Source: an uncultured Sandaracinaceae bacterium (lineage in GTDB: Bacteria; Myxococcota_A; Polyangia; Polyangiales; Sandaracinaceae). Taken from it: a stretch of 54,252 nt of DNA. Under the pieces are notes generated by a model. It was not told the origin of the DNA. It saw only the letters and a list, made by a program, of their open reading frames with translations, and did no database searches. The position numbers and the translations under genes are program-made. The stretch covers positions 25,855-80,106 of the forward strand of contig CAYZQM010000002.1 in assembly GCA_964480175.1 (NCBI GenBank), read 5' to 3'. Below, in pieces: positions 277 to 20,437 of this stretch (the first letter of the stretch is position 1; every line of letters begins with the position of its first letter).

Positions 277-3015
277 TCACTTCAGCGGACGCTGGATGTG
301 CTCTTTGCCGTCGAAGCGCAGGAGGTTCGGCTTGCCCTCGATGCGGGTGTGGATCTCGACGGGCCTTCGCCAGACCCGCACCAGCGCCTTGAGCACCTCG
401 CGCGCCCAGTCGACCTTGAGATCGATGCCCTGGTGATCGTGACGCAAGAGCAGCTCGCCCCGGTTGCCGAGGTTCGCGTCTTCGACGTGGATGAAGGGCT
501 GCCCCGCGTTGGTGAGCTGAAAGAGGAGCTTCTCCTTCACCTCCTTGAACTTGCGGGTCTCGATCTCGAAGCGCTCGTTGCGCGCGTTCCAGCCGAACGC
601 GTAGAGCTTGTGCTCGGCGGCGAACTCGGGGGTGAGGAACTCGTCGATGAAGGTCACGTCCGTGTAGAGCTTGCGGACCTCGAAGATCTTCTTCTTGCCC
701 TCGCCCGCCTTGCGGTTCCAGCTGCGGCGCGCCTCGAGATCGTCGCAGTCCTCCCACTCCTTGCCGTGCTGACCGCGGTTCCATCGATCTTCGACGTGGC
801 GATAGAGCTCGACCCCGAGCTTGTACGGGTTCAGCCGCCCGCCGCCCGACTCCATCACGCCCGCGTTGCGCTCGGCGTACTCGATGATCTCGCCGTCGTC
901 GCAGACCTTCTCGGTCATCAGCTTGCTGTGCCAGTAGCTGTTGTGGCTGATGAAGCCCGCCGAGGCGTAGCGGTGGGTCTCGGCGACGGTGATGTCGTAG
1001 ACGTCGGCGCGACCTTCTTCGATCGACACCACCTCGTCGGTCCAGTCCTCGCGCTTCATCCAGCGGTGCGCGTCCACGTACGCCTCGAGCGCCGCTTGCT
1101 TGCGTGCCAAGCCGAACCCGAAGCTCGAGGCGAAGCGCTTGGCCGAAGCGCCCTTCACCTCGAGCCGGTACACGCCATCGCGCGCGAGCCGCCGGCGGCA
1201 GAGCACGCCCTCGTTGAGCAAGAGGAGCATCGTCTGGCGGCTCATCGTCTCGCTCGCCGACGAGAGCACCACGCCGCTCGGTCCGGCGTGGCCGTCGCAG
1301 TCGAAGTACGCGCGGAGGAACGCGCGCACGACGCCTCGGGGCGAGCGAAGCACGGCCGCGGGGATCGCCTTGGCGCGCGCGCTGGGTCCGGTCGTCAGCC
1401 CGAGGTGATCGACCAGGAGCGAGGTCAGCGACTGCGACGAGATCGAGACCCGGAGCTTGCCGCGCTCCTCGCGGATCCGCGGATGGACGTCGAAGAGCTC
1501 GGTCGCGAGCTGCGCGAAGCGCTCGGCCTGAGGACGATCGCCGGTGGTCAGCCCGAGGGTGCGCTTCACCGTGCTGATGTGTCCGTCGCCGCAGAGGTAG
1601 CCGAGGAACGCGCCGAAGCGCTCGTCCAGCGTGGCGGGCACCGTGATCGTGGCGCGCCGTGAGGGCTGGATGCGCTCGGTCGCTTCGTAGTGCTGGAGCG
1701 CCATCGCGATCGCGTCACCCTGACGGGTCCGCTTGCCCGCCTTGTGCCGCAGCACGGTCCACACCGACGTGCCGGCTCGTCGTGCCACGTCGTGCAGCGT
1801 CAGCGTCGTCTTCGGCGTCCAGGTGATGGGCACCTCGCGCTCGGGCCACAGACCACACCCGCCCGTCACCCGCAGCGCGTCCCCGACGCGGAGCGCGTCC
1901 ATGCGGCTCCAGCTTCCGTCGGGACGCATCAGCCGGTGGTTGTCCGATCCCGTGAGCGTCAGACCGCGCCGCGTGTGGACGGTGATCGTGCGGTGGTCGC
2001 GGATGACGTGGCGATCGATCACCGCGCGCTCGGACTCGCCATCCGAGACGGTGCCCCCGCGCGCCTCGACGAGGGACCGCATCGGCAACAGACCCTCGCC
2101 CGTGAAGATCAGCGTGTCGGGGGCCACGCAGGCCCACCCTTCGTTCATGATCTTCGTCTGCATCTGGGGCCAGAAGTAGTAGGCCTCCGCGCGGATCGCC
2201 CAGAGCACGTCGCGCTCCCACCGCTCGAGCGGCGCGTGGTCGAGCAAGAAGCCGAGCACGTCGCGGTCGGGCTGCTCGGGGATCTTCTTCTTCGCCTCGC
2301 GCTCCTCGGCCAGCTTCTCACGCTGCTGGTCCATGAACTCGCGCGGGTTGATGAACTCCTCCATGTAGTCGCGCTCGTTGCGCAGGCGCCCCGGCTCCTC
2401 CGCGGCGTCGCCCTCGAGCAGCTCGTACTCCTTCTTGGCGGCGCGCGGCTTCTGCGGGATGAAGGGCTTCTGCGGATCGATCAGGTTCTCGAGCGACAAG
2501 CACACGTCGACGAACTCTTCGACCTTGTCCATGCCCACGCGGCTGCCCCAGCGGCGGATGGTCGCGCCGTGGTTCGCCATCGTGTCGATCCACTTTCGGA
2601 TCGGCTCGCCGGTCTCGCCGTCACGGCCCTGGTTGGTCGCGCTGAACGCGAAGTTGTTCTTGAAGAAGTCGACGTGCCCCAGCACGTGCGAGATGACGAG
2701 CTTCTGATCGACGATCGAGTTCCCCTCGAGCAAGTAGGCGATCGACGGGTTGTTGTTGATCACCATCTCGTAGATCTTGCTCAGGCCGTACTCGTAGCTC
2801 TTGGAGAGCTGCTCGTACTCCATCCCGAAGCGCCAGTGGGGGTAGCGCACCGGGAAGCCGCCATAGGCGGCGAGCTCGTTCATCTGGTCGTACGCGACGA
2901 CCTCGAAGAGGGTGGGGAAGAAGTCGAGGCCGTAGCTCTTGCCGTGCGCTTCGATCTGCTGCTGGATGTCGCGGAGGTAGCCGGGGACCTCGGTCGAGAG
3001 CGAGCTTCTAGCCAT
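277..3015 (-). CDS. spoVR: SpoVR family protein interrupted by an in-frame intein (912 aa precursor, about 515 aa after splicing)
   Basis: N-terminal region (YGLDFFPTLFEVV, FPVRYPHWRFGMEYE, HVLGHVDFFKNN) and C-terminal region (SYWHSKLM..., RLNPYKLG, DEFLTPEF) read as the SpoVR/YcgB family. The conserved IMNEGWA|SYWH motif is split by a 397-aa insert. Confidence 0.85.
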   Translation of the reverse strand: MARSSLSTEVPGYLRDIQQQIEAHGKSYGLDFFPTLFEVVAYDQMNELAAYGGFPVRYPHWRFGMEYEQLSKSYEYGLSKIYEMVINNNPSIAYLLEGNSIVDQKLVISHVLGHVDFFKNNFAFSATNQGRDGETGEPIRKWIDTMANHGATIRRWGSRVGMDKVEEFVDVCLSLENLIDPQKPFIPQKPRAAKKEYELLEGDAAEEPGRLRNERDYMEEFINPREFMDQQREKLAEEREAKKKIPEQPDRDVLGFLLDHAPLERWERDVLWAIRAEAYYFWPQMQTKIMNEGWACVAPDTLIFTGEGLLPMRSLVEARGGTVSDGESERAVIDRHVIRDHRTITVHTRRGLTLTGSDNHRLMRPDGSWSRMDALRVGDALRVTGGCGLWPEREVPITWTPKTTLTLHDVARRAGTSVWTVLRHKAGKRTRQGDAIAMALQHYEATERIQPSRRATITVPATLDERFGAFLGYLCGDGHISTVKRTLGLTTGDRPQAERFAQLATELFDVHPRIREERGKLRVSISSQSLTSLLVDHLGLTTGPSARAKAIPAAVLRSPRGVVRAFLRAYFDCDGHAGPSGVVLSSASETMSRQTMLLLLNEGVLCRRRLARDGVYRLEVKGASAKRFASSFGFGLARKQAALEAYVDAHRWMKREDWTDEVVSIEEGRADVYDITVAETHRYASAGFISHNSYWHSKLMTEKVCDDGEIIEYAERNAGVMESGGGRLNPYKLGVELYRHVEDRWNRGQHGKEWEDCDDLEARRSWNRKAGEGKKKIFEVRKLYTDVTFIDEFLTPEFAAEHKLYAFGWNARNERFEIETRKFKEVKEKLLFQLTNAGQPFIHVEDANLGNRGELLLRHDHQGIDLKVDWAREVLKALVRVWRRPVEIHTRIEGKPNLLRFDGKEHIQRPLK
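940..2130 (-). mobile_element. intein (Hint domain plus LAGLIDADG homing-endonuclease domain) within spoVR
   Basis: Insert starts with Cys (codon 2130..2128, CVAPDTLIFTGEG, block A). Block B is LTGSDNHRLM (TxxH). Two LAGLIDADG motifs are present: FLGYLCGDGHI and FLRAYFDCDGHAG. Blocks F/G are VYDITVAETHRYAS and GFISHN, ending at Asn codon 942..940, followed by +1 Ser (SYWH). I verified the coordinates codon by codon. Confidence 0.85.
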
Positions 3016-3151
3016 GGCTGGCTAGTGTCGCACGATTTGATCCGACGGCCCCGGTGCAAGCAGGGCAAGCGGGGATGGGGCCCCGCGCGCAGGGAGCGAA
3101 GCGACCGAAGCGTCGCGGGTGGGGCCCCGGCGGACTCACTCCGACGGGGGA

Positions 3152-3168
3152 GGGGCTGCGACAGCCCC
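3152..3168 (-). terminator. GC-rich hairpin immediately after the stop of the 3170..4201 gene
   Basis: GGGGCTG-cga-CAGCCCC, a 7-bp perfect stem beginning 2 nt past the stop codon (3172..3170). There is no U-tract, so this is only a candidate. Confidence 0.3.
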
Positions 3169-3169
3169 T

Positions 3170-4201
3170 CTAGAAGAGCGAGGCGCCGCTCTGCATCGTG
3201 AAGAGCGCCCAGGGTGCGGCTGCGAGGACGAGCGCGACGAGCCACGCGATCGCCGCGCCGCGCGCCAGCCTCGCGCCGAGCACGTCGAGGACCTCCGCGT
3301 TCGCCTCGGGGTCGGTCGCAGCCCGCCGGACGAAGCGGGTGATGCCGACGGCGAGGCCGCGCGAGACGGCGACGAAGAGCGCGACGTAGAGCAGCCAGCC
3401 GATGCCCAGCGCCTCGTCACCGTGCAGGAGACAGAACGGGCAGAGGTGGTTGGGCGTGCCGTACGCGTGCGGCGCCACCCACGTCACGATCGCGAGCGGC
3501 GCGGCCACCAGCGACAGCGCGCTGAAGAGCGCGACCGCGCGCGCCCCGTGATCGCTGCTCTTGCGGAGCTGCACGATCGCCGCGATCAGTGCGAGCGCGC
3601 CGAACCCGAAAAACGAGGCGACGAACGCCATGCGCGGGCCGCCGTCGTGGCCGAGCACCTCGCGCGTCGCCTCGAGGCCACTCGAGCAGCACGAGGCGAC
3701 CTCGCGGAAGTCGAGCGCGAGCGCGTGCGCGGTGGAGAGCACGAAGTCCGCGGCGAAGAGCGGCGCGAGGGCCGCGGCGCAGAAGAGCTCGAGCTGGGTG
3801 AGCACCGGACGCTTCAGCGCCAGCCCTGCGCGGTGCAGCGCGAGCCACGCGCTCGCCCCGAGCGCCGCCGCGAGCGCGACGAAGAGCGAGCGGAAGCCGT
3901 AGGACGTGGCCTCGAGCACGCCGTACGCGCACATCGCGCCGCGCAGCGATCCGTGCATGCGATCCGCGCCGACGACGGCAACCGCGAGCGAGCCGATCGC
4001 GCACCACGCCGCCACCGCGGTGAGCGTCCCGATGAGCTCGGCGCGGCGATCGAGGAGCAGCTGCCCTTCACTCGAGCGCGCCAGCGCGGGCGCGCGCAAC
4101 AGCCGCACCGCGAGCACCACCACCACGACCGCGAGCACCGCACCGGTGCCGGACGTCACCAAGCGCGCGAGCAGCCAAGGGCGGAGCAGGTTGCCGAGCA
4201 C
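3170..4201 (-). CDS. polytopic integral membrane protein, function unknown
   Basis: 343-aa ORF with GTG start and about 8 hydrophobic segments. Conserved-looking Cys motifs are present (SCCSS, HLCPFCLLH). The opposite-strand ORFs here are Arg-rich shadows. Confidence 0.6.
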   Translation of the reverse strand: MLGNLLRPWLLARLVTSGTGAVLAVVVVVLAVRLLRAPALARSSEGQLLLDRRAELIGTLTAVAAWCAIGSLAVAVVGADRMHGSLRGAMCAYGVLEATSYGFRSLFVALAAALGASAWLALHRAGLALKRPVLTQLELFCAAALAPLFAADFVLSTAHALALDFREVASCCSSGLEATREVLGHDGGPRMAFVASFFGFGALALIAAIVQLRKSSDHGARAVALFSALSLVAAPLAIVTWVAPHAYGTPNHLCPFCLLHGDEALGIGWLLYVALFVAVSRGLAVGITRFVRRAATDPEANAEVLDVLGARLARGAAIAWLVALVLAAAPWALFTMQSGASLF

Positions 4202-4274
4202 GCCGAGGTCATGGGCGTCGGCGCGGAGGTTCGCAAGCGGCCGTCAGGCGGCGCGCGCCGCGGGTCGCGAGGTC

Positions 4275-5921
4275 TCAGCGGGGGCGGGAGAAGATGTCCG
4301 GGATCTTCAGGTCGCCGCCGCCCGTGCCGCCGGTGCCTCCGCCGCCCGGATCGTCGTCGCCACCGCCGCCGCTCGGGGGGCGGGCGACCAAGCGCAGCGT
4401 GACCGGCGCCATCCCTTCGCTCGGCGTCAGCGTCACCTCGCCGCGGGCGCGTCCGCGCGCGGCGCGGATCGTCACCTCTTGGCCGGCCGGCAGCTCGAAG
4501 GTGCAAGGCGTCTCGGTGCACACGTCGCCGCGATCGACGATCCACACGCGCGCGCCCGACGGGTTCGTCTCCATGCGGATGGCGACGCGCGCAGGACCCG
4601 CGTCGGGTGCGCCCGCGTCCGGCTCCTCGATCACCGGCGGGCCCGCGTCGGGCTCCAGGGCAGCCACGGCCACCGCGCCCGCGTCGGGTGCGTCCGCGAG
4701 CACGGGCTCGACGGTGTCGCGCGGACCGAGGGCGAGGTACGCGCCCACTCCCGCAGCGATCACCAGCGCCGCGACCAGCGCGATCCACGGCGCGTTGCTG
4801 CGCGGCGGCGGCGTCAGATCCATCTCGGTCGCCGCCGCGCCGATCGCCCGCGCGGTCTTCGCGCGCGCCTTCACCGGCTCGCCGTGCCCGTACAGCGTCT
4901 GCTTGCTGGTGGGATCGATCCGCACCGCTTGGCCCTCGAGCGCGCCCTCGAGCGCGCGGGCCATCTCGTCGCACGACTGGAAGCGATCCTCGGGCGCCTT
5001 CGCCAGCGCCTTGGTGATGAACGACTCGATCGCCGGGTTCTCGGCGTAGCTCGGGTTGAACGCGGCGAGCTGCGGGATCGGCTCGAACATGTGCTGCGTC
5101 AGGATCCCCATGAAGGTGTCGCCGACGAAGGGCACCTTGCCCGCGAGCATCTCGAAGAAGATCACCCCGAGCGCGTAGATGTCGACGCGGTGATCGAGGT
5201 CGGGCTTCCCCGCCGCCTGCTCGGGCGACATGTACTCGGGCGTCCCGAAGATCATCCCGGTCTTGGTCAGCTTGCGACCCGGCGCGCCGGGGGTCTCGAC
5301 GTCGCTCATCTTCGCGATGCCGAAGTCCACGATCTTCACGAAGTCCGCGCGGCCGTCGCGCTCGGTGAGGAAGATGTTCTCGGGCTTCATGTCCCGATGG
5401 ACGATCCCCTTGCCGTGCGCGGCGCCGAGCGCGCGGCAGCACTGCAAGATCACGTCGGCCGCGCGCGCGAGCGGCAGGATCGCCTCCTTGGCGAGCGCGT
5501 TCGCGAGGTCCTCGCCGGAGAGCAGCTCCATCACGAAGTACGAGGCGCCGTTCGGCATCTCGCCGAAGTCCGAGATGTCGACGATGTGCGCGTTGCCGAT
5601 GCGCGAGGCGCTCTTGGCCTCTTGGCGGAAGCGCTCGACCACTTCGGAGCGGCTGGAGAAGTCATCCCGCAGGATCTTGAGCGCCACCCGCTTCTCGAGC
5701 GCCGTGTGCTCCGCCTCGTACACGAAGCCCATCCCGCCCTCGCCGATGCGGCGGATGATCCGGTAGCGATCGTCGATGGTCAGCCCTACCAGCGGATCGC
5801 CGCCCTCGGGCTTGGGCATCTGCATCTGCGACGGCGTCTCGAGGCGCGTCGCGTCGTTCGGGCAGAAGACCTCGCCGCCAGCAAACTCGTTCTTGCAAGC
5901 CGGGCAGATCTTCACGGTCAA
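4275..5921 (-). CDS. Hanks-type Ser/Thr protein kinase with N-terminal zinc ribbon, TM helix and C-terminal PEGA-like domain
   Basis: CPACKNEF...FCPNDATRL zinc ribbon. Kinase motifs GEGGMGFVYEA, VALKIL, HRDMKPENIFL, DFGIAKM and GTPEYMSPEQ. TM segment WIALVAALVIAAGVGAYL. C-terminal PSGARVWIVDRGDVCTETPCTFELPAGQEVTIRA. TTG start per the track. Confidence 0.9.
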   Translation of the reverse strand: MTVKICPACKNEFAGGEVFCPNDATRLETPSQMQMPKPEGGDPLVGLTIDDRYRIIRRIGEGGMGFVYEAEHTALEKRVALKILRDDFSSRSEVVERFRQEAKSASRIGNAHIVDISDFGEMPNGASYFVMELLSGEDLANALAKEAILPLARAADVILQCCRALGAAHGKGIVHRDMKPENIFLTERDGRADFVKIVDFGIAKMSDVETPGAPGRKLTKTGMIFGTPEYMSPEQAAGKPDLDHRVDIYALGVIFFEMLAGKVPFVGDTFMGILTQHMFEPIPQLAAFNPSYAENPAIESFITKALAKAPEDRFQSCDEMARALEGALEGQAVRIDPTSKQTLYGHGEPVKARAKTARAIGAAATEMDLTPPPRSNAPWIALVAALVIAAGVGAYLALGPRDTVEPVLADAPDAGAVAVAALEPDAGPPVIEEPDAGAPDAGPARVAIRMETNPSGARVWIVDRGDVCTETPCTFELPAGQEVTIRAARGRARGEVTLTPSEGMAPVTLRLVARPPSGGGGDDDPGGGGTGGTGGGDLKIPDIFSRPR

Positions 5922-9661: not shown

Positions 9662-10375
9662 TCAGAGCGGGCGGCTGATGAGCGTCGCGAGCTGGGGGAC
9701 GAGCTTCTTTCGGAACGCCGGATCCATCGCGAGGTCTTGGCGCACCTCGAGCTCCATCGCGCGTCGGCCGTGTCGGTCGCCGTGGCTCGAGGCGACGTAG
9801 ATGAGGCCGGCCTTGCCGCTCCACGGCTCGTTGGCGCGCGCGTCGTAGCCGAGCGCGCTCAGCTCGCTCACCCACGCGTTGCCCAGCGCTTCTTCGCGAT
9901 CGAAGAGCACGCCGATCTCCACCTCGCGAGGGGAGCCTTCGTAGAGCGGAGTGAACGTGTGGATCGCGAGCACCATCGGGCAGCGCGTCGCGCGCAGCTC
10001 GCGATCGACCGTGTCGTGGAACGGGCGGTGGTAGCGCGACAAGCGCAGCGCGCGCTCGTCGTCCGACAGATCCTGGTTCAAGTGCACCGGCAGGCCCTCG
10101 GCGCTCGCGCGAAAGAGCGTGTCGCTCACATCGGGTCGATTGAGATCGATCAACAGGCGCGAGTAGCGGGCGAGCACCGCGGGCGCGTCGATCGCCTCGG
10201 CGAGCTCCAGGGTCAGATCGCGCGCGCCGAGATCGACGGCCCAGTGCGTGCCGACCAAGCGGCGGTCGGCCTCGGGCCACGCGTAGCCCTCCGGCAGGTC
10301 TTGGGATGCGTGCTCGCAGGTCAGGAACGCGGGCGCGTTCGCGCTGCCCGCGCGCACTTCGTAGCTGTCGCCCAT
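9662..10375 (-). CDS. N-formylglutamate amidohydrolase family protein
   Basis: Family-typical LTCEHAS, SRLLIDLNRP, YHRPFH and AIHTFTP motifs. ATG at 10375..10373 overlaps the upstream TGA (10377..10375) by 1 nt. I rejected the Arg-rich N-terminal extension of the track ORF up to 10813. Confidence 0.75.
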   Translation of the reverse strand: MGDSYEVRAGSANAPAFLTCEHASQDLPEGYAWPEADRRLVGTHWAVDLGARDLTLELAEAIDAPAVLARYSRLLIDLNRPDVSDTLFRASAEGLPVHLNQDLSDDERALRLSRYHRPFHDTVDRELRATRCPMVLAIHTFTPLYEGSPREVEIGVLFDREEALGNAWVSELSALGYDARANEPWSGKAGLIYVASSHGDRHGRRAMELEVRQDLAMDPAFRKKLVPQLATLISRPL

Positions 10376-12198
10376 CAGGCCGACTCGGCGAGCATCAAGG
10401 GACGACCGAGGGCCTGCTCGATGAGGCCGCGCAGCGGCGCGCCGCCGGGCTCCTGCTTGGGCAGGCAGCGGTCCATGTCGCGCACGATCTTGGAGAGGCC
10501 CTTGCGGAGCGCGGCGCGATCGTCGGCGACGTCGTACTCGAGGCGATCGAGATCGAAGCCGATGCGGTAGCTCCGCAGATCCGTCATCTCGACGAAGCGC
10601 TCGACCTGCTCGGGCCCGATCGCCTTGAGCGCGCGGCACACCAGCTCGACCACCACCTCTTGGGCCCCCGCGTAGTTCTTCTCCATCGTCGCCAGCGTGT
10701 CCGTCGGCGAGCGACGGTTCGTCAGATCGATGTGCAGGTCGGCCAAGAGCGAAGGGAAGAGCGGGAAGGGCACGAAGTCGGGCTTCGCGCTCCCGGGCGC
10801 GAGCTCGGCCCACGCCTTGAGGATCTTCTGCGCCTTCTGGTTCAGCGCGTGAAAGCGCCGGTGGGTCTCGCGGAAGCGCGCGTGCAGCTCGGGCTCGACG
10901 GCGAAGATCCGGTTGAAGAAGTAGGGGCAGACGAAGGACCAGTAGTGGAAGTTGTCCCAGTAGAGCTTCGCGGGCAGGACGGCGGGGGCGCCCATGATGT
11001 GGCTGTGTCCCCGGAAGGTCGTCGCCGTGACCTCGGCGAACGCCAAGAAGAACTCGTTGAGCTCGCGCTCGCGCGCCGCCTGCATCGCGTCGCTCTCGTG
11101 GCGATCGAGGTCGGCGCGGATCAGCTCGGTGGTCATCGAGGCGCCGATGCCGATGAAGTCCGAGCCCGGCGAGTAGAGGGGGTCGAGGAAGATCCCCGCC
11201 TCACCGATGCACGACCAGCGCTGGCTCGCGGAGAACACCTGCTTCGATCCGTACGCGTAGCGGCGGAGCGCGGCGAAGTCTTCCCACGGCAGGTCCGCGA
11301 GGTGCGCCGCGAGCGCGGGCTCGTGCTTCTCGATGAACGCCTTGGCCGTCTCGGGGCGGCCGAAGGTGGCGAACGGGTGGTGCTCTTCACCCGCGACGAT
11401 CCCGATCGACTGGTAGCCGGTCGACAGGGGAATCACCCAGATCCAGTAGCCCTTGCCGCAGAAGTGGCTGGTCGAGAGCCAGCGCCGTCCATCGAGATCG
11501 CGCCCGTGCCAGCGGTGCTCGGTCTCGGGCACCAAGTCGGCGACGTTCACGCGCTGCGCGACCCGAAACCACGCCGAGCTGTGGTGGTGATTGGGATCGG
11601 TGCTCAGCTGGAGCTTGTTCTGCAAGAGACGACGGCGTCCGGTCGCGTCGATCAGCCAGCGGGCCTCGAGCGTCTCCTTGCCTGTGTCCTTGCGCGCGAT
11701 CTGCACCTGGTGCGCCGCATCCCCCGAGCCGAGCTCGATCTGAAAGACCGACGCACCCTCCAGCAGCGTCGCGCCCGCGTCCTCGACCATCGCGCGCAGA
11801 TCCGTCTCGAAGCGCCCGCGATCGAGCTGGTAGCTCGGCACCACCGGCTGCTCGCTCGGGCCGAGCTCGCGGCGCTCGGCGACCGGCAGCTGCCCATCGC
11901 CCACGAAGTAGCGCAGCCCGAACTTCACCAGCTGTCGCGCTTCCAAGTACGACTTGAGCCCGAGCACGTCGGAGAAGAAGTGGGCGCCGATCTCGACCGA
12001 CGACTCGCCCACCTTGAAGCACGCGTCGGGCAGCGGGCGCGTGCTCGGCTCGACCACGGCGACCGAGAGCGAAGGGAGCTGCTGGCGGAGGTGCAGCGCG
12101 CTGGTCAGCCCCGCCAGGCCGCCACCCATGATCAGGACGTCGACGCGCTTCATCGAGGCGCGCATCATGGGACGGCGCCCGAGACCGAACAAGCGCAC
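10375..12198 (-). CDS. flavin-dependent halogenase-like FAD enzyme (paralogue A)
   Basis: VDVLIMGGGLAGL (GxGxxG), KVGESSVEI, VKFGLRYF, GYWIWVIPL (WxWxIP) and FLDPLYSPGSDF (FxxPxxSxG). The start could instead be the ATG at 12153 (MKRVDVL...). Confidence 0.75.
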   Translation of the reverse strand: MRLFGLGRRPMMRASMKRVDVLIMGGGLAGLTSALHLRQQLPSLSVAVVEPSTRPLPDACFKVGESSVEIGAHFFSDVLGLKSYLEARQLVKFGLRYFVGDGQLPVAERRELGPSEQPVVPSYQLDRGRFETDLRAMVEDAGATLLEGASVFQIELGSGDAAHQVQIARKDTGKETLEARWLIDATGRRRLLQNKLQLSTDPNHHHSSAWFRVAQRVNVADLVPETEHRWHGRDLDGRRWLSTSHFCGKGYWIWVIPLSTGYQSIGIVAGEEHHPFATFGRPETAKAFIEKHEPALAAHLADLPWEDFAALRRYAYGSKQVFSASQRWSCIGEAGIFLDPLYSPGSDFIGIGASMTTELIRADLDRHESDAMQAARERELNEFFLAFAEVTATTFRGHSHIMGAPAVLPAKLYWDNFHYWSFVCPYFFNRIFAVEPELHARFRETHRRFHALNQKAQKILKAWAELAPGSAKPDFVPFPLFPSLLADLHIDLTNRRSPTDTLATMEKNYAGAQEVVVELVCRALKAIGPEQVERFVEMTDLRSYRIGFDLDRLEYDVADDRAALRKGLSKIVRDMDRCLPKQEPGGAPLRGLIEQALGRPLMLAESA

Positions 12199-12312
12199 CC
12201 GATGCGCGTGGCCCAGCGGTGCAGGAGCGCCGTGAGGTCCCGCTCAGCGCGCCCGCCCGCGCTTGGCCAGACGACGGGCGCGGCGTAGATCACGGTCCTT
12301 CCTCGGACGCCC

Positions 12313-13956
12313 ATGACTGAAGACCACGCGCACTCGATCGACGTCGCCATCCTCGGCGGCGGCCTCGCCGGAAACCTCGTCGCCCGCCAGCTCCGCATGC
12401 GTTTGCCGAGCGCGTCGATCGCGATCTTCGAGAAGGACACCGAGCGCGGCTTCAAGGTCGGCGAGTCGTCCGTCGAGATCGCCAGCCACTTCTTCATCAA
12501 GAAGCTCGGCCTCTCGAGCTACATGTACGACGCGCAGCTGCCCAAGAACGGGCTGCGCTTCTTCTTCGACACGCCGGCCAAGGACGCGCCGCTCTTCGAG
12601 ATGAGCGAGGTCGGCTCGAACAAGATGCCGATGATTCCGACGTTCCAGATCGATCGGGCGCGCTTCGAAGAGGACCTGCTCGAGATGAACCGCCGCGCGG
12701 GCATCGACGTGCAGATCGGCGTCAGCATCAAGGACCTGGCGCTGCACGAGGCGGGCGAGCCCACCCACCGCCACGCCTTCAGCGTGGTGCGCGAGGATGG
12801 GAGCAGGACCCGGGTGCGCGCGCGCTGGGTGATCGACGCCAGCGGCCGGAGCCAGCTGATCAGCAAGCTGCGGGGCTACCGCGTGCCCGAGAAGCACGCG
12901 TGCGGCGCCGTGTGGGGGCGCTTCACCGACGTCACCGACATGGACTCGCTCATGGAGTACCCCGTCTCGGTCCCGCCGTTCTCCGGCAGGGAGACCCCGG
13001 TGATGCAGAAGGCCTGGCCCGGCGCGAACGCGTCGAAGGCGCGAGCGCACCACACCGCACGGATGCTCTCGACCAACCACTTCTGCTACCGGGGCTATTG
13101 GATCTGGTTCATCCCGATCGCCCGCGGCATCACGTCGCTCGGCGTGGTGGGCGAGGTCTTCGATCCGAAGATGTCGAGCGAGCAGGGCTTCGTGGACTTC
13201 CTGAAGGGGCACCGCGCGGTCGCCTCGCTGATCGAGAACGCCCGCTGCCTCGATGTCGGCAGCTACGCTCGCTATGCGTACGGCACCAGCCGCTACTTCG
13301 GGGCGGACGAGCGCTGGGCGATGATCGGCGAGGCCGCGGCGTTCAGCGATCCCTTCTACTCACCGGGCTCGGACTACATCGCGATCGAGAGCGACATGAT
13401 CACCGATCTGATCGCGCGCGACTTCGCCGGCGAGTCCGACGCCGAGCGGGCCGAGCGCGGCGAGCTCTACGACGCGTTCATGAAGTTCCGGTACGAGGCC
13501 ACGATGCTCCTCTACCGCAACCAGTACCCCGCGCTGGGCAGCTACGAGACGATGCGGTTGAAGTGGAACTTCGACATCGCCTGTTACTACAACCTCTGGC
13601 TCGACTTCTACATGAGGGACTACCACCTCGAGCCTCGCAAGATCCGCGAGCAGCTGCGCCGCAAGGAGTACGTGCTCTCGGCCCTGCGCAACTTCAGCGA
13701 GCTGTTCCAGAAGCTGGTGCGCGAGCTCGAGCAGAGCGGCCACTACCACCGCAGCAACCTGGGCCGCTTCAACGACGGCACCGATCTGCTCTACTTCCAG
13801 AGCGAGATCGGTCAGGAGCGCAAGAAGGGCGCGGTGAACCAGCGCACCGAAGAGGTCTTCAACTTCTGCCTGAAGGAAGCGCAGCGGATCCTCGGCAAGG
13901 AGAGCGGCGAGGGGCTCGAGCTCACCCAGTTCATGGAGAGCGGGCCGCTCGCCTGA
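12313..13956 (+). CDS. flavin-dependent halogenase-like FAD enzyme (paralogue B)
   Basis: IDVAILGGGLAGN (GxGxxG), KVGESSVEI, PKNGLRFFF, GYWIWFIPI (WxWxIP) and FSDPFYSPGSDY (FxxPxxSxG). Motif order matches the divergent neighbour. Confidence 0.75.
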   Translation: MTEDHAHSIDVAILGGGLAGNLVARQLRMRLPSASIAIFEKDTERGFKVGESSVEIASHFFIKKLGLSSYMYDAQLPKNGLRFFFDTPAKDAPLFEMSEVGSNKMPMIPTFQIDRARFEEDLLEMNRRAGIDVQIGVSIKDLALHEAGEPTHRHAFSVVREDGSRTRVRARWVIDASGRSQLISKLRGYRVPEKHACGAVWGRFTDVTDMDSLMEYPVSVPPFSGRETPVMQKAWPGANASKARAHHTARMLSTNHFCYRGYWIWFIPIARGITSLGVVGEVFDPKMSSEQGFVDFLKGHRAVASLIENARCLDVGSYARYAYGTSRYFGADERWAMIGEAAAFSDPFYSPGSDYIAIESDMITDLIARDFAGESDAERAERGELYDAFMKFRYEATMLLYRNQYPALGSYETMRLKWNFDIACYYNLWLDFYMRDYHLEPRKIREQLRRKEYVLSALRNFSELFQKLVRELEQSGHYHRSNLGRFNDGTDLLYFQSEIGQERKKGAVNQRTEEVFNFCLKEAQRILGKESGEGLELTQFMESGPLA

Positions 13957-14164
13957 TCGCTTCCGCGTCGGAGACCGCAGTGGGCGCTCGCCCGTCTCTG
14001 GCGTGCCGCCGGGGTGCTGAATGCCTCGCGGTTGCCTTACGTCTCCGGCGGGCTCGAAAACCCCGTGTTTCGCCCAGGTGGCGATCTTGCGGCCTTCCTG
14101 GTAAGCCCGCGCCCCTTCTGACTGACCCGGCCATCGGCCGGACCCGACACCAGCGAGACGAACC

Positions 14165-14503
14165 TTGGCCCCGATCCCCGTCCCCAGCCGCGAAGAGGTC
14201 TTCGACAAGATCACCGAGATCTTGAGCGACTCCTTCGAGCTCGATCGCAAGAAGATCACCACGGCCTCGACCCTCTACGATGAGCTGGACCTCGACTCGA
14301 TCGACGCGATCGACATCTTCACGCAGCTCCGCGAGATCACCGGCCGCCGCCCGGACCCCGCCGACGCCCGCAACGTCCGCACCGTCGACGAGCTGATCAC
14401 GTTCGTGCTCGCCGAGATCGACAAGACCAACGACGGCGTCCCCGAGGGGCCCTCGCGCCCACCCACCCCGGAAGAGCTCGCCGAGGGTGAGAAGAAGGGC
14501 TGA
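14165..14503 (+). CDS. acyl carrier protein (stand-alone)
   Basis: 112 aa. LYDELDLDSIDAIDIF carries the phosphopantetheine Ser in a DSI context. TTG start per the track, so the exact start is uncertain. Confidence 0.75.
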   Translation: MAPIPVPSREEVFDKITEILSDSFELDRKKITTASTLYDELDLDSIDAIDIFTQLREITGRRPDPADARNVRTVDELITFVLAEIDKTNDGVPEGPSRPPTPEELAEGEKKG

Positions 14504-14519
14504 GGGCGTAGAACGACCG

Positions 14520-15764
14520 ATGCGTCGCGTCGTGATCACGGGCATGGGGGTGGACTCGCCGATCGGGGTCGGCGTCGCGGAGAACGTCGCTTCGCTGAAG
14601 GCGATGCGCGGCGGCATCCGCCTGATGCACGAGTGGAACAAGGTCTCGGACCTGCACACCCGGATCGGCGGCCCGGTCAGCGGCATCGATCTGATGGCGC
14701 ACTATCCCCGGCGCCGGCGGCGCACCATGGGGCTGGTCGGGCTCTACGCGATGCACACAGCCGATCAGGCGCTGGAGCAGGCGGGCCTGACCGGCGAGGT
14801 GGGCGAGGCGATCCTGAGCGGCGGGCGCTGCGGCGTCGCGTACGGATCGACCACCGGCAGCTCGCAGGCGCTCGAGGACTTCTGTGGTCCGCTCTTCACC
14901 GAGCACACGATGCGGGGCCTGGATTCGAGCGCGTACCTCAAGTTCATGACCCACACCTGCGCCGCGAACCTCGCGAGCAGCTACGGGATCAAGGGACGCG
15001 TCATCCCCGCGATCAGCGCCTGCACCAGCGGCAGCCAGTCGATCGGCTTCGCGTTCGAGGCCGTCCGCGGCGGGGTGCAGGACGTGATGATCGCGGGTGG
15101 CGCCGAGGAGCTGCACTACGCGAGCGCTGTGACCTTCGATCTCTTGATGGCGACCAGCGTCCGCTACAACGAGACCCCCGAGCTGTCGCCGCGTCCCTTC
15201 GACACCAAGCGCGATGGCCTGGTGATCGGCGAGGGCGCAGGCACGGTGATCCTCGAGGACTACGAGCACGCCAAGCGCCGCGGCGCGACCATCCTCGCCG
15301 AGCTGATCGGCTTCGGCACCAACTGCGATGGGCTGCACATCACCGCGCCCAGCGAGGGCGGGATGCGCGGCGCGATGGAGCTGGCCCTGGCGGATGCCCG
15401 GGTGCACCCCACCGACGTCGACTACGTGAACATGCACGGCACCGCGACGGAGATCGGCGACATCGCGGAGAGCCAGGCGACGGCGAGCCTCTTTCAGCGG
15501 CCGATCCCGGCGAGCACCCAGAAGAGCTACACGGGCCATACGCTCGGCGCGTGCGGCGCGATCGAGCTGGTCTACTCGGTCGCGATGATGCGCGAGGGCT
15601 TCCTCGCCGCCAACCGCAACCTCGACGAGCTCGATCCGCGCTGCGGCAAGCTGGGCTACGTGCGCGAGACCACCAGCGCGCGCCCGCGCCTGATCATGAC
15701 GAACAACTTCGCGTTCGGCGGGGTGAACACGTCGATGCTGGTCAAGGCGTTCGATCCCTCCTGA
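14520..15764 (+). CDS. beta-ketoacyl-ACP synthase (KAS I/II type)
   Basis: MRRVVITGMGV N-terminus, active-site Cys in AISACTSGSQ, and His-His in MHGTATEIGD and TGHTLGACG, followed by NNFAFGGVN. The ATG at 14520 gives a typical N-terminus. Confidence 0.85.
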   Translation: MRRVVITGMGVDSPIGVGVAENVASLKAMRGGIRLMHEWNKVSDLHTRIGGPVSGIDLMAHYPRRRRRTMGLVGLYAMHTADQALEQAGLTGEVGEAILSGGRCGVAYGSTTGSSQALEDFCGPLFTEHTMRGLDSSAYLKFMTHTCAANLASSYGIKGRVIPAISACTSGSQSIGFAFEAVRGGVQDVMIAGGAEELHYASAVTFDLLMATSVRYNETPELSPRPFDTKRDGLVIGEGAGTVILEDYEHAKRRGATILAELIGFGTNCDGLHITAPSEGGMRGAMELALADARVHPTDVDYVNMHGTATEIGDIAESQATASLFQRPIPASTQKSYTGHTLGACGAIELVYSVAMMREGFLAANRNLDELDPRCGKLGYVRETTSARPRLIMTNNFAFGGVNTSMLVKAFDPS

Positions 15765-18301: not shown

Positions 18302-20437
18302 TCAGGAGCGTTCGACGGAGTACACGCCGTCGACGCCCTGGATCTTGCGCATGAGGATGTTGAGCTTCTGCGCCTCGTCCACCTGGAAGTGGAAGAGGTT
18401 GATCGCGGTGCCGTCGGGGCCCACGCGGCAGTTGGCCTCGGAGATGTTCACGCCGGCCTCGGTGAACGCGGCGCTCACGTTGGCGAGGATGCCGGGCTTG
18501 TCGGTGGTGGTGATGCGCAGCACCACGGGGCGAGAGGCCTTCACCCGATCCGACCAGCTCACGTCGATGCGCCGCTCGGGGTCGAGCTCCATCGCCTTGA
18601 CGCAGCCTCGGCGGTGCACGGTCACGCCGCGCCCTCGGGTGATCCAGCCGGTCACCGGATCGCCCGGCAGCGGCGAGCAGCACTGCGCGAAGCGCACCAC
18701 CACGTCGTCGACGTCGTCGATCTTGATGCCGCCGTCGTTGCCGCCGGTGACCCGGCGCACGGTGCGCTCGAAGAGCGACGGCTTGAGATCCGCCTTCTCG
18801 TCCTGCACCGCGGCGTCGTAGACCTCGGCGCCGTCGATCTTGCCGAAGCCGACCGCCGCGAAGAGCTCCTCGCCGCTCTGCACGTGTAGGACGGTCGCGA
18901 CCTTCTCGAGCTGCCCGGACTTGGTGAAGCGCGCGAAGCTCGCGTCGTGCTTGTGGAACGCGCGCTCCACCAGCGTGCGGCCCAGCGCGATGCTCCGCTT
19001 GCGCTCCTCGGCGCGGATGTACGTCCGCACCTTGCTGCGGGCGCGGCCCGTCGCGACGTAGTCGAGCCAGTCCTTGCTCGGGTGCTGCTGCGGGCTCGTG
19101 AGGATCTCGATCGTGTCGCCGTTGTGCAGCTGGTAGCGCAGGGGAACGATCGCGCCGTTCACCCGCGCGCCCGCGCAGTGATCGCCGACCTCCGAGTGGA
19201 TCGAGTACGCGAAGTCGATCGGCGTGGCGCCCCGGGGGAAGACCTTGAGCTGACCGCGCGGGGTGAAGACGTAGACCTCCTCGGCGAAGAGATCGACCTT
19301 CACCGAGTCGAGGAACTCGGCCGGGTCGGCGACCTCTTGCTGGAACTCCATCAGCTGACGCAGCCAGGCGAAGCGCGCGGCGTCCTTGGTGTCCAGACCC
19401 CCGGTCTTCTCCTTGTACTTCCAGTGCGCCGCGATGCCGAGCTCGGCGGTGCGGTGCATCTCGCTCGTGCGGATCTGCACCTCGATGCGGCGCTGGCCCG
19501 GGCCGATGACCGTCGTGTGCAGCGACTGGTACATGTTCGACTTCGGCAGCGCGACGTAGTCCTTGAAGCGACCGGGGATCGGGGTCCACTGCGAGTGGAT
19601 CACCCCGAGCGCCGCGTAGCAGTCGGCGACGTCCTCGGTGAGCACCCGGAACGCGAGCACGTCGTGCACTTGCTCGAACTCGCAGTTGTTCTGCCGCATC
19701 TTGCGGAAGATCGAGTAGAGGTGCTTGGCCCGGCCGGTGACCTCCACCGCGAAGCCCCGCTCGATCAGCATCTTCTGCAGGCGCTTCACGACGTCGCCGA
19801 TGTAGCGGTCGCGGTCGCGCTGGGCCTTCTTGGTCTTCTGGACCAGGTCCGCGTACTGCTCGGGCCACAGATACTGGAAGGCGATCTCTTCCAGATCGCT
19901 CTTGAGCCAGTTGATGCCCAGACGCCCCGCCAGCGGCGCGTAGATGTCCATCGTCTCTTGGGCGATGCGGACCTGGGCCTCGGGCTTCATGTGCTCGAGG
20001 GTCCGCATGTTGTCGAGACGGTCGGCCAGCTTGACCAAGAGCACGCGGATGTCGCGCGCCATCGCGACGACCATCTTGCGGAAGCTCTCCGCCTGCTGGT
20101 CCTCCTTGCTGGTGAAGTTGATGCGGCCGAGCTTGGTGACGCCGTCGACGAGGAACGCGATCTCTTCACCGAAGCGCTGCGCCATCTCCTCGTGGGAGAC
20201 CTCGCAGTCCTCGACCACGTCGTGCAGGAACGCCGCACACACGCTCGCGCTGTCGAGCTTCATGTCGGCGATGATCGACGCCACCGCCACCGGATGGCTG
20301 ATGTACGGATCGCCCGACTTGCGGTTCTGACCCTCGTGCTTCTGCGCAGCGAAGGAGAACGCTCGGTGGAGCAAATCGAAGTCGGCTGCCGGCTGGTAGG
20401 CTCGGACCTTGTCGACGATGTCGGTCAGGTGAACCAT
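18302..20437 (-). CDS. relA: bifunctional (p)ppGpp synthetase/hydrolase, RelA/SpoT homologue
   Basis: HD hydrolase motif (HPVAVA...LHDVVEDC), synthetase region (RAKHLYSIFRKM, YQSLHTTV), TGS (VFTPRGQLKVFPRGATPIDFAYSIH) and a C-terminal ACT-like region; 711 aa. Confidence 0.95.
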   Translation of the reverse strand: MVHLTDIVDKVRAYQPAADFDLLHRAFSFAAQKHEGQNRKSGDPYISHPVAVASIIADMKLDSASVCAAFLHDVVEDCEVSHEEMAQRFGEEIAFLVDGVTKLGRINFTSKEDQQAESFRKMVVAMARDIRVLLVKLADRLDNMRTLEHMKPEAQVRIAQETMDIYAPLAGRLGINWLKSDLEEIAFQYLWPEQYADLVQKTKKAQRDRDRYIGDVVKRLQKMLIERGFAVEVTGRAKHLYSIFRKMRQNNCEFEQVHDVLAFRVLTEDVADCYAALGVIHSQWTPIPGRFKDYVALPKSNMYQSLHTTVIGPGQRRIEVQIRTSEMHRTAELGIAAHWKYKEKTGGLDTKDAARFAWLRQLMEFQQEVADPAEFLDSVKVDLFAEEVYVFTPRGQLKVFPRGATPIDFAYSIHSEVGDHCAGARVNGAIVPLRYQLHNGDTIEILTSPQQHPSKDWLDYVATGRARSKVRTYIRAEERKRSIALGRTLVERAFHKHDASFARFTKSGQLEKVATVLHVQSGEELFAAVGFGKIDGAEVYDAAVQDEKADLKPSLFERTVRRVTGGNDGGIKIDDVDDVVVRFAQCCSPLPGDPVTGWITRGRGVTVHRRGCVKAMELDPERRIDVSWSDRVKASRPVVLRITTTDKPGILANVSAAFTEAGVNISEANCRVGPDGTAINLFHFQVDEAQKLNILMRKIQGVDGVYSVERS

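What the first reader, a model, noticed from the sequence alone, without database searches (positions are those of the whole stretch)
940..2130. Complete LAGLIDADG-type intein splitting SpoVR inside its conserved NEGWA/SYWH motif
The 912-aa ORF reads as SpoVR up to ...QTKIMNEGWA, switches to a 397-aa insert beginning with Cys, ends the insert at ...GFISHN, and resumes with SYWHSKLM. All canonical splicing blocks are readable:
- Block A: CVAPDT.
- Block B: TGSDNH (TxxH).
- Blocks F/G: VYDITVAETH... and terminal HN, with +1 Ser.
There are also two LAGLIDADG motifs that both keep their acidic residue (GYLCGDG and YFDCDG), so the homing endonuclease may still be active. An HTH-like stretch (TLHDVARRAGTSVWTVLRHKAG) sits between the Hint N-lobe and the endonuclease.
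Excision gives a 515-aa protein with a contiguous NEGWASYWH, which matches normal SpoVR length and motif. Inteins are overwhelmingly reported in replication, repair, recombination and ATPase proteins. I cannot recall SpoVR as an established intein insertion site, so this may be a new intein allele and host-protein class.
Basis: partly seen in the sequence, partly recalled or inferred. Interest (0 to 1): 0.75.

Follow-up and report, generated by a model that had tools for sequence, protein, structure and literature searches.

The report
Mobile intein inside the spoVR gene
The spoVR gene in this window is interrupted by a complete self-splicing protein element (an intein) carrying its own DNA-cutting homing enzyme; it is real and looks functional, but SpoVR is already a catalogued intein host and hundreds of database SpoVR genes carry the same element at the same spot.

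Summary
ORF 277..3015 (minus strand, 912 aa) is a SpoVR precursor. Residues 296-692 (window 940..2130) form a 397-aa insert, and removing it leaves a 515-aa protein that matches the SpoVR model end to end.

The insert is a canonical class-1 intein:
- It has Cys1, a block B His, block F, a terminal His-Asn and Ser+1.
- It is built as a Hint domain, a helix-turn-helix accessory domain and a double-motif LAGLIDADG endonuclease.
- The AlphaFold model (pLDDT 93.6) matches solved endonuclease-bearing inteins (TliVMA, PI-PfuI, PI-SceI).

The splicing residues are invariant or nearly so in 121 homologous SpoVR inteins, and both catalytic Asp residues are kept in 117 of 121. The endonuclease is under purifying selection (dN/dS 0.16). 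Intein-free alleles with an intact NEGWA-S/T-YWH motif are common in close relatives, and copies with a decayed endonuclease sit at the same site. Together this is the classic homing-cycle picture.

The novelty claim fails. A 2025 preprint cites an InBase entry for a SpoVR intein in Chloroflexus. I also found at least 120 database clusters with this intein at this site, in Myxococcota, Acetothermia and a haloarchaeon. Some SpoVR homologues carry inteins at two further sites.

Verdict: a new member of a known kind, of modest interest. Splicing and DNA cleavage are inferred, not shown.

The parts
277..3015 (-). SpoVR precursor ORF (912 aa plus stop), made of N-extein, intein and C-extein
   Evidence: ORF list. 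Pfam SpoVR E=6e-127 in two stretches, plus LAGLIDADG_3 and Intein_splicing.
2131..3015 (-). N-extein, SpoVR residues 1-295, ending ...QTKIMNEGWA
   Evidence: Coordinates. NEGWA is invariant in 121 of 121 homologues.
940..2130 (-). Intein, 397 aa (precursor residues 296-692), from Cys1 to His396-Asn397
   Evidence: AlphaFold2 pLDDT 93.6. Foldseek top hits are endonuclease-bearing inteins: 7qsu E=6e-25, then 7qst, 2cw7, 1dq3, 1vde.
277..939 (-). C-extein, SpoVR residues 693-912 plus stop, starting with Ser+1 (SYWHSKLM...)
   Evidence: S+1, W and H are invariant in 121 of 121.
1828..2130 (-). Hint N-lobe (intein residues ~1-101), with block A (C1) and block B (S62-x-x-H65, window 1936..1947)
   Evidence: Beta-strands 7-101 in the model. 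C1 and H65 are invariant. TIGR01445 matches residues 1-68.
1651..1827 (-). Accessory domain (intein residues ~102-160): three helices containing the HTH-like LHDVARRAGTSVWTVLRHKAG
   Evidence: Helices 112-119, 123-130 and 138-150. Weak LacI HTH hit. L112, A116, A119, S122, T125, V126, R128 and G132 are at least 90% conserved. HTH-like accessory domains are described for the TliVMA and PI-TkoII inteins (PMC8966425).
1057..1650 (-). LAGLIDADG homing-endonuclease domain (intein residues ~161-358). Motif 1 is AFLGYLCGDG (window 1582..1611, D182). Motif 2 is FLRAYFDCDG (window 1291..1320, D279). The block D Lys is K254.
   Evidence: PF14528 E=4e-17. D182 and D279 are each kept in 117 of 121. K254 is invariant. 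Foldseek matches I-DmoI at TMt 0.7-0.78. dN/dS is 0.16 against the closest orthologue.
940..1056 (-). Hint C-lobe (intein residues ~359-397): block F (VYDITVAETHRY) and block G (GFISHN)
   Evidence: Strands 364-396. D379, H386, H396 and N397 are invariant or nearly so. TIGR01443 hit.
2131..2154 (-). Left half of the presumed homing site (AAGATCATGAACGAAGGGTGGGCC, which encodes KIMNEGWA)
   Evidence: Most positions of the same 24 nt are over 90% conserved in 80 intein-free alleles.
916..939 (-). Right half of the presumed homing site (AGCTACTGGCACAGCAAGCTGATG, which encodes SYWHSKLM)
   Evidence: The joined window flanks match the empty-site consensus at 42 of 48 positions.

Best explanation
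This is a canonical class-1 intein with a nested LAGLIDADG homing endonuclease, inserted in the most conserved motif of SpoVR/YcgB.

Inferred mechanism, following the established class-1 pathway:
1. The 912-aa precursor is translated.
2. The Hint domain converts the Ala295-Cys296 peptide bond into a thioester.
3. The N-extein is transferred onto the side chain of Ser693 (+1).
4. Asn692 cyclises and releases the intein.
5. An O-to-N shift leaves a native NEGWA-SYWH peptide bond in a 515-aa SpoVR.

The insertion point lies inside a predicted long helix, so SpoVR is probably non-functional until it is spliced.

The released 397-aa intein is a monomeric double-motif LAGLIDADG endonuclease with an HTH-type accessory DNA-binding domain. 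It would cut intein-free spoVR alleles across the conserved sequence AAGATCATGAACGAGGGCTGGGCC|(A/T)C(C/G)TACTGGCAC. Repair from the intein-bearing allele would then copy the intein in (homing).

Shown here: the motifs, the fold, the family-wide conservation, purifying selection, empty-site alleles, decayed-endonuclease alleles and intein/extein discordance. Inferred: actual splicing and actual DNA cleavage.

My confidence that it is a genuine splicing intein is about 0.97. My confidence that the endonuclease of this copy is still active is about 0.65.
For: - Exact boundaries, and an extein that becomes contiguous once the insert is removed (SpoVR model positions 7-406 of 407, E=8e-134).
- Hint and LAGLIDADG HMM hits and sequence hits to solved VMA inteins.
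- The AlphaFold2 model (pLDDT 93.6, pTM 0.89) matches solved endonuclease-bearing inteins: TliVMA 7qsu E=6e-25 (TMq 0.65), PhoVMA, PI-TkoII, PI-PfuI and PI-SceI. It also matches I-DmoI.
- In 121 SpoVR inteins, C1, H65, N397 and S+1 are invariant and H396 is kept in 120 of 121. The LAGLIDADG Asp residues are each kept in 117 of 121.
- This copy differs at only 3 of 94 columns that are at least 95% conserved, and all three changes are conservative.
- Against the syntenic orthologue L081, dN/dS is 0.16 for the endonuclease, 0.10 for Hint-N and 0.06-0.10 for the exteins.
- All 80 of the best genome loci (Sandaracinaceae, Polyangiaceae, Sorangium) are intein-free with an intact NEGWA[S/T]YWH, at up to 81% extein identity. 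An 86%-identical intein-free protein also exists (P0280).
- Intein-bearing and intein-free alleles are interspersed on the extein tree, with at least 27 parsimony changes.
- Decayed-endonuclease inteins sit at the same site (P0184/L083 and P0191/L084).
- At close range the intein diverges about four times faster than the extein (16% vs 4% amino-acid divergence). Yet in distant hosts, where exteins are 29-49% identical, the intein is as similar as the extein or more so (for example 0.46 vs 0.35). One 80%-identity extein cluster holds 7 intein lineages that are under 65% identical.
Against: - No experiment: neither splicing nor cleavage has been shown for this or any SpoVR intein I could find.
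- Intein_splicing scores only just above its Pfam cutoff (35.9 vs 35.8), and TIGR01445 is below its cutoff. The Hint assignment therefore rests mainly on the structure model and the conserved residues.
- Block B has Ser instead of the usual Thr.
- The intein's GC3 (0.92) matches the host's. That indicates long residence rather than recent arrival.
- The 120 intein-bearing homologues were chosen on combined score to the query, which can bias the intein-versus-extein identity comparison.
- The NJ tree is crude.
Confidence: 0.8

Rival explanations
1. The intein splices, but its endonuclease is no longer an active homing enzyme. On this view it is a vertically inherited resident whose endonuclease fold is kept for structural reasons (correct folding and splicing) or for DNA binding only.
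For: - Close relatives show co-divergence: extein identity of 0.95 or more goes with a median intein identity of 0.77.
- The window and L081 are syntenic and both carry the intein.
- Codon usage is fully adapted to the host.
- PMC8966425 reports the PhoVMA intein as having an inactive endonuclease, so inactive endonucleases do occur in full-length inteins.
Against: - Both catalytic Asp residues and the block D Lys are conserved across the family.
- dN/dS for the endonuclease is 0.16.
- Where the endonuclease is evidently unneeded it visibly decays (P0184, P0191). The intact state therefore looks maintained by selection for function.
- Intein-free alleles remain abundant as targets.
- Long-range intein identity is at least as high as extein identity.
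Confidence: 0.25
2. The intein is domesticated as a conditional switch. Splicing would be held back until a redox, temperature or starvation cue, so that active SpoVR appears only under stress. This could coexist with homing.
For: - The insertion is inside an invariant motif and a predicted helix, so the precursor is probably inactive.
- From general knowledge, SpoVR/YcgB belongs with PrkA/YeaG and YeaH in starvation and sporulation responses. The operon link is seen in most related loci.
- The intein has a catalytic Cys1 plus internal Cys residues (C92, C180, C278, C311) that could in principle form a disulfide trap.
- The intein is retained over a very wide host range.
Against: - Many close relatives function without the intein, so it is not required.
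- C180 is Val or Ile in most homologues, and no conserved Cys pair near Cys1 was identified.
- Insertion in conserved motifs is what any homing intein does, because conserved DNA makes a stable target.
- There are no experimental data.
Confidence: 0.1
3. It is not a splicing element at all. It would be a non-splicing insertion, a bacterial intein-like (BIL) domain, a pseudogene or an assembly chimera.
For: Intein_splicing and the TIGR N-terminal model score at or below threshold. No protein-level data exist.
Against: - All class-1 catalytic residues are present and invariant or nearly so in 121 homologues.
- The reading frame is open across 912 codons, with host-like GC3.
- The same architecture is seen in at least 120 independent clusters and many contigs, which excludes a chimera.
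- The insertion is at an invariant motif of a conserved protein with a conserved +1 nucleophile. From general knowledge of the family, BIL domains instead sit in variable regions.
- The fold matches true inteins.
Confidence: 0.02

Closest known systems
InBase 'Cau SpoVR' intein (SpoVR-like protein of Chloroflexus aurantiacus J-10-fl), as cited in bioRxiv 10.1101/2025.01.02.630785
   Same: Same host protein family (SpoVR), and an intein associated with a LAGLIDADG endonuclease.
   Different: The preprint says the Chloroflexus intein carries its LAGLIDADG endonuclease on the anti-sense strand. Here the endonuclease is in frame on the sense strand. I could not retrieve the Chloroflexus sequence, so whether the insertion site is the same is unknown.
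TliVMA / PhoVMA inteins (PDB 7qsu, 7qss, 7qst; PMC8966425)
   Same: Best sequence and structure matches (phmmer E=3e-17; Foldseek E=6e-25, TMq 0.65). They share the three-part build of a Hint domain, an accessory domain and a LAGLIDADG endonuclease. The TliVMA accessory domain is also HTH-like.
   Different: The host is archaeal V-ATPase subunit A, not SpoVR. Identity is only ~20%. The +1 residue and flanking motifs are unrelated.
PI-SceI (yeast VMA1 intein), PI-PfuI and PI-TkoII
   Same: Class-1 splicing chemistry. A double-motif LAGLIDADG endonuclease is nested in the Hint domain, with an extra DNA-recognition module. The homing-cycle population pattern is also shared (Foldseek E=1e-12 to 1e-19).
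   Different: Identity is 13-17%. In PI-SceI the DNA-recognition region is an insertion within Hint rather than a linker domain between Hint and the endonuclease.
Bacterial inteins in class II ribonucleotide reductase (NrdJ), MutS and UvrD-like helicases
   Same: These are the nearest non-SpoVR relatives in the representative search, at 30-36% identity over the endonuclease and Hint-C regions.
   Different: They sit in replication, repair or nucleotide-metabolism proteins, the typical intein hosts. SpoVR is a stress/sporulation protein of unknown biochemistry.

Membership tests
Class-1 intein (Hint-domain protein-splicing element) | Nucleophile (Cys/Ser) as first residue (block A) | tested here: met
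   Cys296 (intein C1), invariant in 121 of 121 homologues.
Class-1 intein (Hint-domain protein-splicing element) | Block B TxxH motif | tested here: met
   The motif is S62-D-N-H65. His is invariant and Ser is kept in 119 of 121. Ser replaces the usual Thr, a conservative variant.
Class-1 intein (Hint-domain protein-splicing element) | Blocks F and G with a terminal His-Asn | tested here: met
   VYDITVAETHRY...GFISHN. D379 is kept in 121 of 121, H386 in 120, H396 in 120 and N397 in 121. TIGR01443 scores above its cutoff.
Class-1 intein (Hint-domain protein-splicing element) | Ser/Thr/Cys at +1 of the C-extein | tested here: met
   Ser693 is kept in 121 of 121. Distant homologues have Ser or Cys.
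Class-1 intein (Hint-domain protein-splicing element) | Hint fold | tested here: met
   AlphaFold2 pLDDT 93.6. Foldseek matches 7qsu, 7qst, 2cw7, 1dq3 and 1vde at E=1e-12 to 6e-25.
Class-1 intein (Hint-domain protein-splicing element) | In-silico removal restores a contiguous host protein, and intein-free homologues exist | tested here: met
   The spliced extein covers PF04293 positions 7-406 of 407. Eighty intein-free loci have NEGWA[S/T]YWH. P0280 is 86% identical and 515 aa.
Class-1 intein (Hint-domain protein-splicing element) | Demonstrated protein splicing | not testable with these tools
   Needs expression with western blot or mass spectrometry.
LAGLIDADG homing endonuclease (monomeric, double-motif) | Two LAGLIDADG helices, each with the catalytic acidic residue | tested here: met
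   D182 in GYLCGDG and D279 in YFDCDG. Each is kept in 117 of 121 homologues. PF14528 E=4e-17.
LAGLIDADG homing endonuclease (monomeric, double-motif) | Pseudo-dimeric alpha-beta-beta-alpha-beta-beta-alpha fold | tested here: met
   The secondary-structure order in the model fits. Foldseek matches I-DmoI at TMt 0.67-0.78 and I-Tsp061I at 0.68.
LAGLIDADG homing endonuclease (monomeric, double-motif) | Population signature of homing: sporadic distribution, empty sites, decaying copies, intein/host discordance | tested here: met
   Caveat: the tree is crude and the sampling was biased by combined score.
LAGLIDADG homing endonuclease (monomeric, double-motif) | Site-specific cleavage of the intein-free allele | not testable with these tools
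   Needs an in-vitro cleavage assay. The candidate target is given.
SpoVR/YcgB family (PF04293 plus SpoVR_C) as host | Full-length match of the extein to the family model | tested here: met
   PF04293 E=8e-134 and PF24755 E=7e-8. NF008737 matches positions 24-489 of 505, but its score of 210 is below the equivalog cutoff of 679. The protein is therefore a family member, not the E. coli YcgB equivalog.
InBase SpoVR intein allele (Cau SpoVR) | Same insertion site in SpoVR as the Chloroflexus entry | not testable with these tools
Only the preprint's statement is available.
Bacterial intein-like (BIL) domain | Hint domain in a variable region of a non-conserved protein, without a conserved +1 nucleophile or a nested endonuclease (definition from general knowledge) | tested here: not met
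   The insert lies in an invariant motif, with an invariant Ser+1 and a nested LAGLIDADG domain.

The most novel reading that the evidence does not exclude
The SpoVR inteins may form a large, uncharacterised population that is still homing and spans Bacteria and Archaea. They use three insertion sites, after query residues N87, H114 and A295, all inside invariant His/Asp/Glu-rich motifs (YEMVINN, HxxxHVDFFKNN, NEGWASYWH). The sites would then mark the unknown catalytic centre of SpoVR. In lineages such as this one, splicing could act as a conditional gate on the PrkA/YeaH/SpoVR stress pathway. The myxobacterial A295|S site would also be an insertion site distinct from the single InBase (Chloroflexus) entry.
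Probability: 0.15. Interest if true: 0.55.

Novelty: new member of a known kind. Interest (0 to 1): 0.3.

Why it matters
- For annotation: this gene and hundreds of database entries are labelled only 'SpoVR family protein' at ~900 aa. The intein should be annotated and the mature product given as 515 aa.
- For intein biology: SpoVR is one of the few intein hosts outside replication, repair and nucleotide metabolism. This family shows every stage of the homing cycle in one data set: empty site, intact endonuclease and decayed endonuclease.
- For SpoVR itself: its biochemistry is unknown and it has no solved structure. Three intein sites fall on three invariant motifs, which is a cheap pointer to the functionally critical surface.
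- In practical terms: the endonuclease would be a new rare-cutting enzyme with a GC-rich target of roughly 20-40 bp, and the intein is a Cys1/Ser+1 splicing module from a mesophilic, high-GC host.

None of this changes current understanding of how inteins work.

Tried and rejected
- **Literature on SpoVR/YcgB inteins.** 'spovr'+'intein' found one paper. 'Cau SpoVR' and 'intein'+'YcgB' found none. One query failed on term length. The intein survey PMC4760082 does not mention sporulation or SpoVR in its main text, and its supplements are not held.
- **Chloroflexus insertion site.** I could not obtain the sequence.
- **Anti-sense endonuclease architecture.** I looked for it in the two same-site inteins that lack a sense LAGLIDADG hit (L083, L084). 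There is no anti-sense LAGLIDADG ORF. Both are sense-strand endonucleases in decay.
- **Organism names for distant SpoVR-intein representatives.** Only 2 of 20 carried a name.
- **Prevalence estimate from an extein-only protein search.** The list was almost entirely intein-free proteins and omitted P0001, which has 96% extein identity. The ranking evidently disfavours split matches, so no prevalence figure can be given.
- **SpoVR fold.** There is no PDB relative by sequence. The AlphaFold2 model of an intein-free homologue is only moderate (pLDDT 68), and Foldseek found nothing significant.
- **Large anti-sense ORFs over the gene** (298..1662 + and 1690..3201 +). I rejected these as high-GC artefacts, because they fail the GC3/GC2 coding pattern that picks out 277..3015 (-).
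- **Second copy in the window.** There is no second intein or SpoVR copy, no Rfam family and no tRNA.
- **Failed call.** The first Pfam call on long multi-intein hits exceeded the residue limit and was repeated with fewer proteins.


Full report
**What is there.** The window holds a 912-codon ORF on the minus strand, 277..3015. It has the coding signature of the surrounding genes: GC3 0.94, GC1 0.65, GC2 0.43. Its product reads as SpoVR up to ...QTKIMNEGWA (residue 295). A 397-residue insert then runs from Cys296 to ...GFISHN (residue 692), and SpoVR resumes at SYWHSKLM. The insert is window 940..2130, exactly as the finding states, and removing it leaves 515 residues. The precursor matches Pfam SpoVR in two pieces. 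The in-silico spliced protein matches positions 7-406 of the 407-position model in one piece (E=8e-134) and also matches SpoVR_C. The finding did not say that the gene is on the minus strand.

**The insert is an intein.**
- *HMMs.* Hits are LAGLIDADG_3 (E=4e-17), Intein_splicing (E=8e-9, just over its cutoff) and the TIGR N- and C-terminal splicing models. The insert also matches the intein parts of many intein-containing NCBIfam models: V-ATPase A, DnaB, RFC, GyrA and RNR.
- *Solved structures by sequence.* The best relatives are the Thermococcus/Pyrococcus VMA inteins and PI-PkoII.
- *Predicted structure.* An AlphaFold2 model built on 41 homologues is confident (pLDDT 93.6, pTM 0.89). Foldseek places it with the solved endonuclease-bearing inteins: TliVMA 7qsu (E=6e-25), PhoVMA, PI-TkoII, PI-PfuI and PI-SceI. 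Its central part matches the monomeric LAGLIDADG enzyme I-DmoI (TMt 0.7-0.78).
- *Domain order in the model.* Hint N-lobe (~1-101), three helices (112-119, 123-130, 138-150), a short disordered linker (155-157), two alpha-beta-beta-alpha-beta-beta-alpha halves led by the LAGLIDADG helices (170-182 and 265-279), and the Hint C-lobe (364-396).
- *The HTH-like stretch.* It lies in the three-helix module. PMC8966425 describes this 'accessory domain' between Hint and endonuclease, and reports that it is helix-turn-helix-like in TliVMA and PI-TkoII. It is therefore a known part of the architecture and probably adds DNA contacts. Its core positions are at least 90% conserved in the family.

**Catalytic residues.** I aligned the query with 120 homologous ~900-aa SpoVR proteins.
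- Splicing residues: C1 is kept in 121 of 121, block B His65 in 121, block F Asp379 in 121 and His386 in 120, His396 in 120, Asn397 in 121 and Ser+1 in 121.
- Endonuclease residues: the two LAGLIDADG aspartates (D182, D279) are each kept in 117 of 121, and the block D lysine (K254) is invariant in the 42-sequence alignment.
- This copy departs from the family at only 3 of 94 strongly conserved columns, and all three changes are conservative. It shows no sign of decay.

**Evidence that it behaves as a mobile element.**
1. *Empty sites.* A scan of one genome per species with the spliced extein returned 80 loci: Sandaracinaceae, Polyangiaceae, Sorangium and other Myxococcota. None contains the intein, and all read NEGWA[S/T][Y/F]WH without interruption, at up to 81% extein identity to the query. 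An 86%-identical intein-free protein also exists. The closest intein-free loci share a lineage trait with the window: they lack the DUF444 gene that precedes spoVR in most Polyangiales. Two of them keep a neighbouring metallo-beta-lactamase gene. This argues that they are orthologues rather than paralogues.
2. *Interspersion.* On a neighbour-joining extein tree, intein-bearing and intein-free alleles are interspersed, with at least 27 parsimony changes.
3. *Decayed copies.* At the same site there are inteins whose endonuclease has decayed: P0184 (294 aa) and P0191 (~375 aa), both with the LAGLIDADG aspartates lost.
4. *Purifying selection.* The syntenic orthologue L081 has 96% extein identity and 84% intein identity. 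Against it, dN/dS is 0.16 for the endonuclease and 0.10 for the Hint N-lobe, compared with 0.06-0.10 for the exteins.
5. *Discordance.* At that short range the intein's amino-acid divergence is about four times the extein's. Yet in hosts whose exteins are only 29-49% identical to the query, the intein at the same junction (NEG[WF]A|C...HN|[S/C]) is as similar or more similar, for example 0.46 vs 0.35 and 0.40 vs 0.33. Within one cluster of exteins at least 80% identical there are seven intein lineages under 65% identical. Across all pairs, extein and intein identities are uncorrelated (Spearman -0.004).
6. *Target site.* The presumed target DNA is highly conserved in empty alleles: AAGATCATGAACGAGGGCTGGGCC|ACCTACTGGCAC.

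There are caveats. The homologue set was selected on combined score, the tree is crude, and nothing here measures activity.

**How it most likely works.**
- *Splicing.* The precursor undergoes class-1 splicing. This comprises an N-S shift at Cys296, trans-esterification to Ser693, cyclisation of Asn692 and an O-N shift. The products are a 515-aa SpoVR with a native NEGWA-SYWH bond and a free 397-aa intein.
- *State of the precursor.* In a moderate-quality model of an intein-free homologue, the junction lies inside a long helix (residues 285-307; local pLDDT 60-89). The unspliced precursor is therefore probably inactive.
- *Homing.* The free intein would act as a LAGLIDADG endonuclease on intein-free spoVR alleles and spread by double-strand-break repair.
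- *Status of the steps.* All of these steps are inferred from established intein biochemistry. The sequence, fold and population data are what is shown here.

**Comparison with what is known.** The claim that SpoVR is an unrecorded intein host does not hold.
- A 2025 preprint states that InBase lists an intein in the SpoVR-like protein of Chloroflexus aurantiacus J-10-fl, notable for an anti-sense LAGLIDADG gene.
- Public databases hold at least 120 clusters (at 90% identity) of SpoVR proteins with this sense-strand intein at this site.
- In a library clustered at 50% identity, 46 of the best 150 intein matches are SpoVR proteins with the insert at the same model position.
- These include Ca. 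Acetothermum autotrophicum BAL58630.1 and the haloarchaeon Haloplanus halobius WP_248896077.1. The source names in the hit lists read only 'SpoVR family protein' or 'stage V sporulation protein R'.
- I could not obtain the Chloroflexus sequence, so whether its site is the same is untested.
- The nearest inteins outside SpoVR sit in NrdJ-type ribonucleotide reductase, MutS, a UvrD-like helicase and a glycosyltransferase, at 30-36% identity.

**Verdict.** This is a genuine, intact, probably still mobile intein. It is a new member of a known kind, in a host family already on record. Interest is modest at 0.3. The features worth keeping are that the full homing cycle is visible in one family, that the element occurs in both Bacteria and Archaea, and that SpoVR has at least three intein sites, all in invariant motifs of a protein of unknown biochemistry.

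Noticed in passing
Homologues P0132 (residues 100-535) and P0156 (residues 105-474); corresponds to window SpoVR residues N87|N88 and H114|V115 (window ~2752-2757 and ~2671-2676, minus strand): Some SpoVR proteins carry TWO inteins. Besides the NEGWA|S site, P0132 has a Hint+LAGLIDADG insert after YEMVVN (+1 Cys). P0156 has one after IIGH (+1 Ser, in the HxxxHxDFFKNN motif). SpoVR therefore has at least three intein insertion sites, all in invariant motifs.
   Followed up: partly
L083 3001-5112 (P0184) and L084 2501-4378 (P0191): These are inteins at the same NEGWA|S site whose endonuclease has decayed. They are 294 and ~375 aa, with the LAGLIDADG aspartates lost and remnants such as FLKSFLEGRG. 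There is no anti-sense endonuclease ORF. They represent the late stage of the homing cycle.
   Followed up: yes
P0128 (Haloplanus halobius WP_248896077.1, intein residues 298-690) and P0123 (Ca. Acetothermum autotrophicum BAL58630.1, residues 283-680): The same intein at the same junction occurs in a haloarchaeon and in Acetothermia. Intein identity to the query is 45-49%, equal to or above extein identity (44-45%). This suggests transfer across phyla and domains, of the intein alone or of spoVR together with the intein.
   Followed up: partly
window 3016-5921 and loci L001-L005, L031, L081, L082: In this lineage (Sandaracinaceae-like) spoVR is not preceded by DUF444/yeaH and prkA, unlike 69 of 84 related loci. 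Here the upstream genes are a 343-aa protein with no Pfam hit that looks hydrophobic by eye (3170..4201, -) and a Ser/Thr kinase (4275..5921, -).
   Followed up: partly
window 940-2130 versus 277-939 and 2131-3015: The intein is more GC-rich overall than the exteins (70.6% vs 64%) although GC3 is similar (0.92 vs 0.93-0.96). The difference therefore reflects amino-acid composition (an Arg/Ala/Gly-rich intein) rather than foreign codon usage. Intein dS against the orthologue L081 (0.64) is higher than extein dS (0.30-0.45).
   Followed up: partly
window 20591-22450 (+), tandem repeat 21774-22170: A 619-aa ORF contains a 174-bp tandem repeat (2.3 copies, 73% matches). The repeat encodes Cys-rich units (C-TRDTDGTTCG-SCGGWGSCGG-SD-CDE-GT-SRTC...). 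By eye it resembles the secreted cysteine-rich repeat proteins I recall from myxobacteria.
   Followed up: no
window 10375-15764: Two FAD-dependent tryptophan-halogenase-like genes (10375..12198 - and 12313..13956 +) lie next to a beta-ketoacyl synthase (14487..15764 +). This may be a small secondary-metabolite cluster.
   Followed up: no
window 18302-20437 (-): A full-length RelA/SpoT (Rsh) homologue with HD, RelA_SpoT, TGS and ACT domains lies 15 kb from spoVR. Both belong to starvation responses, but no link between them was examined.
   Followed up: no
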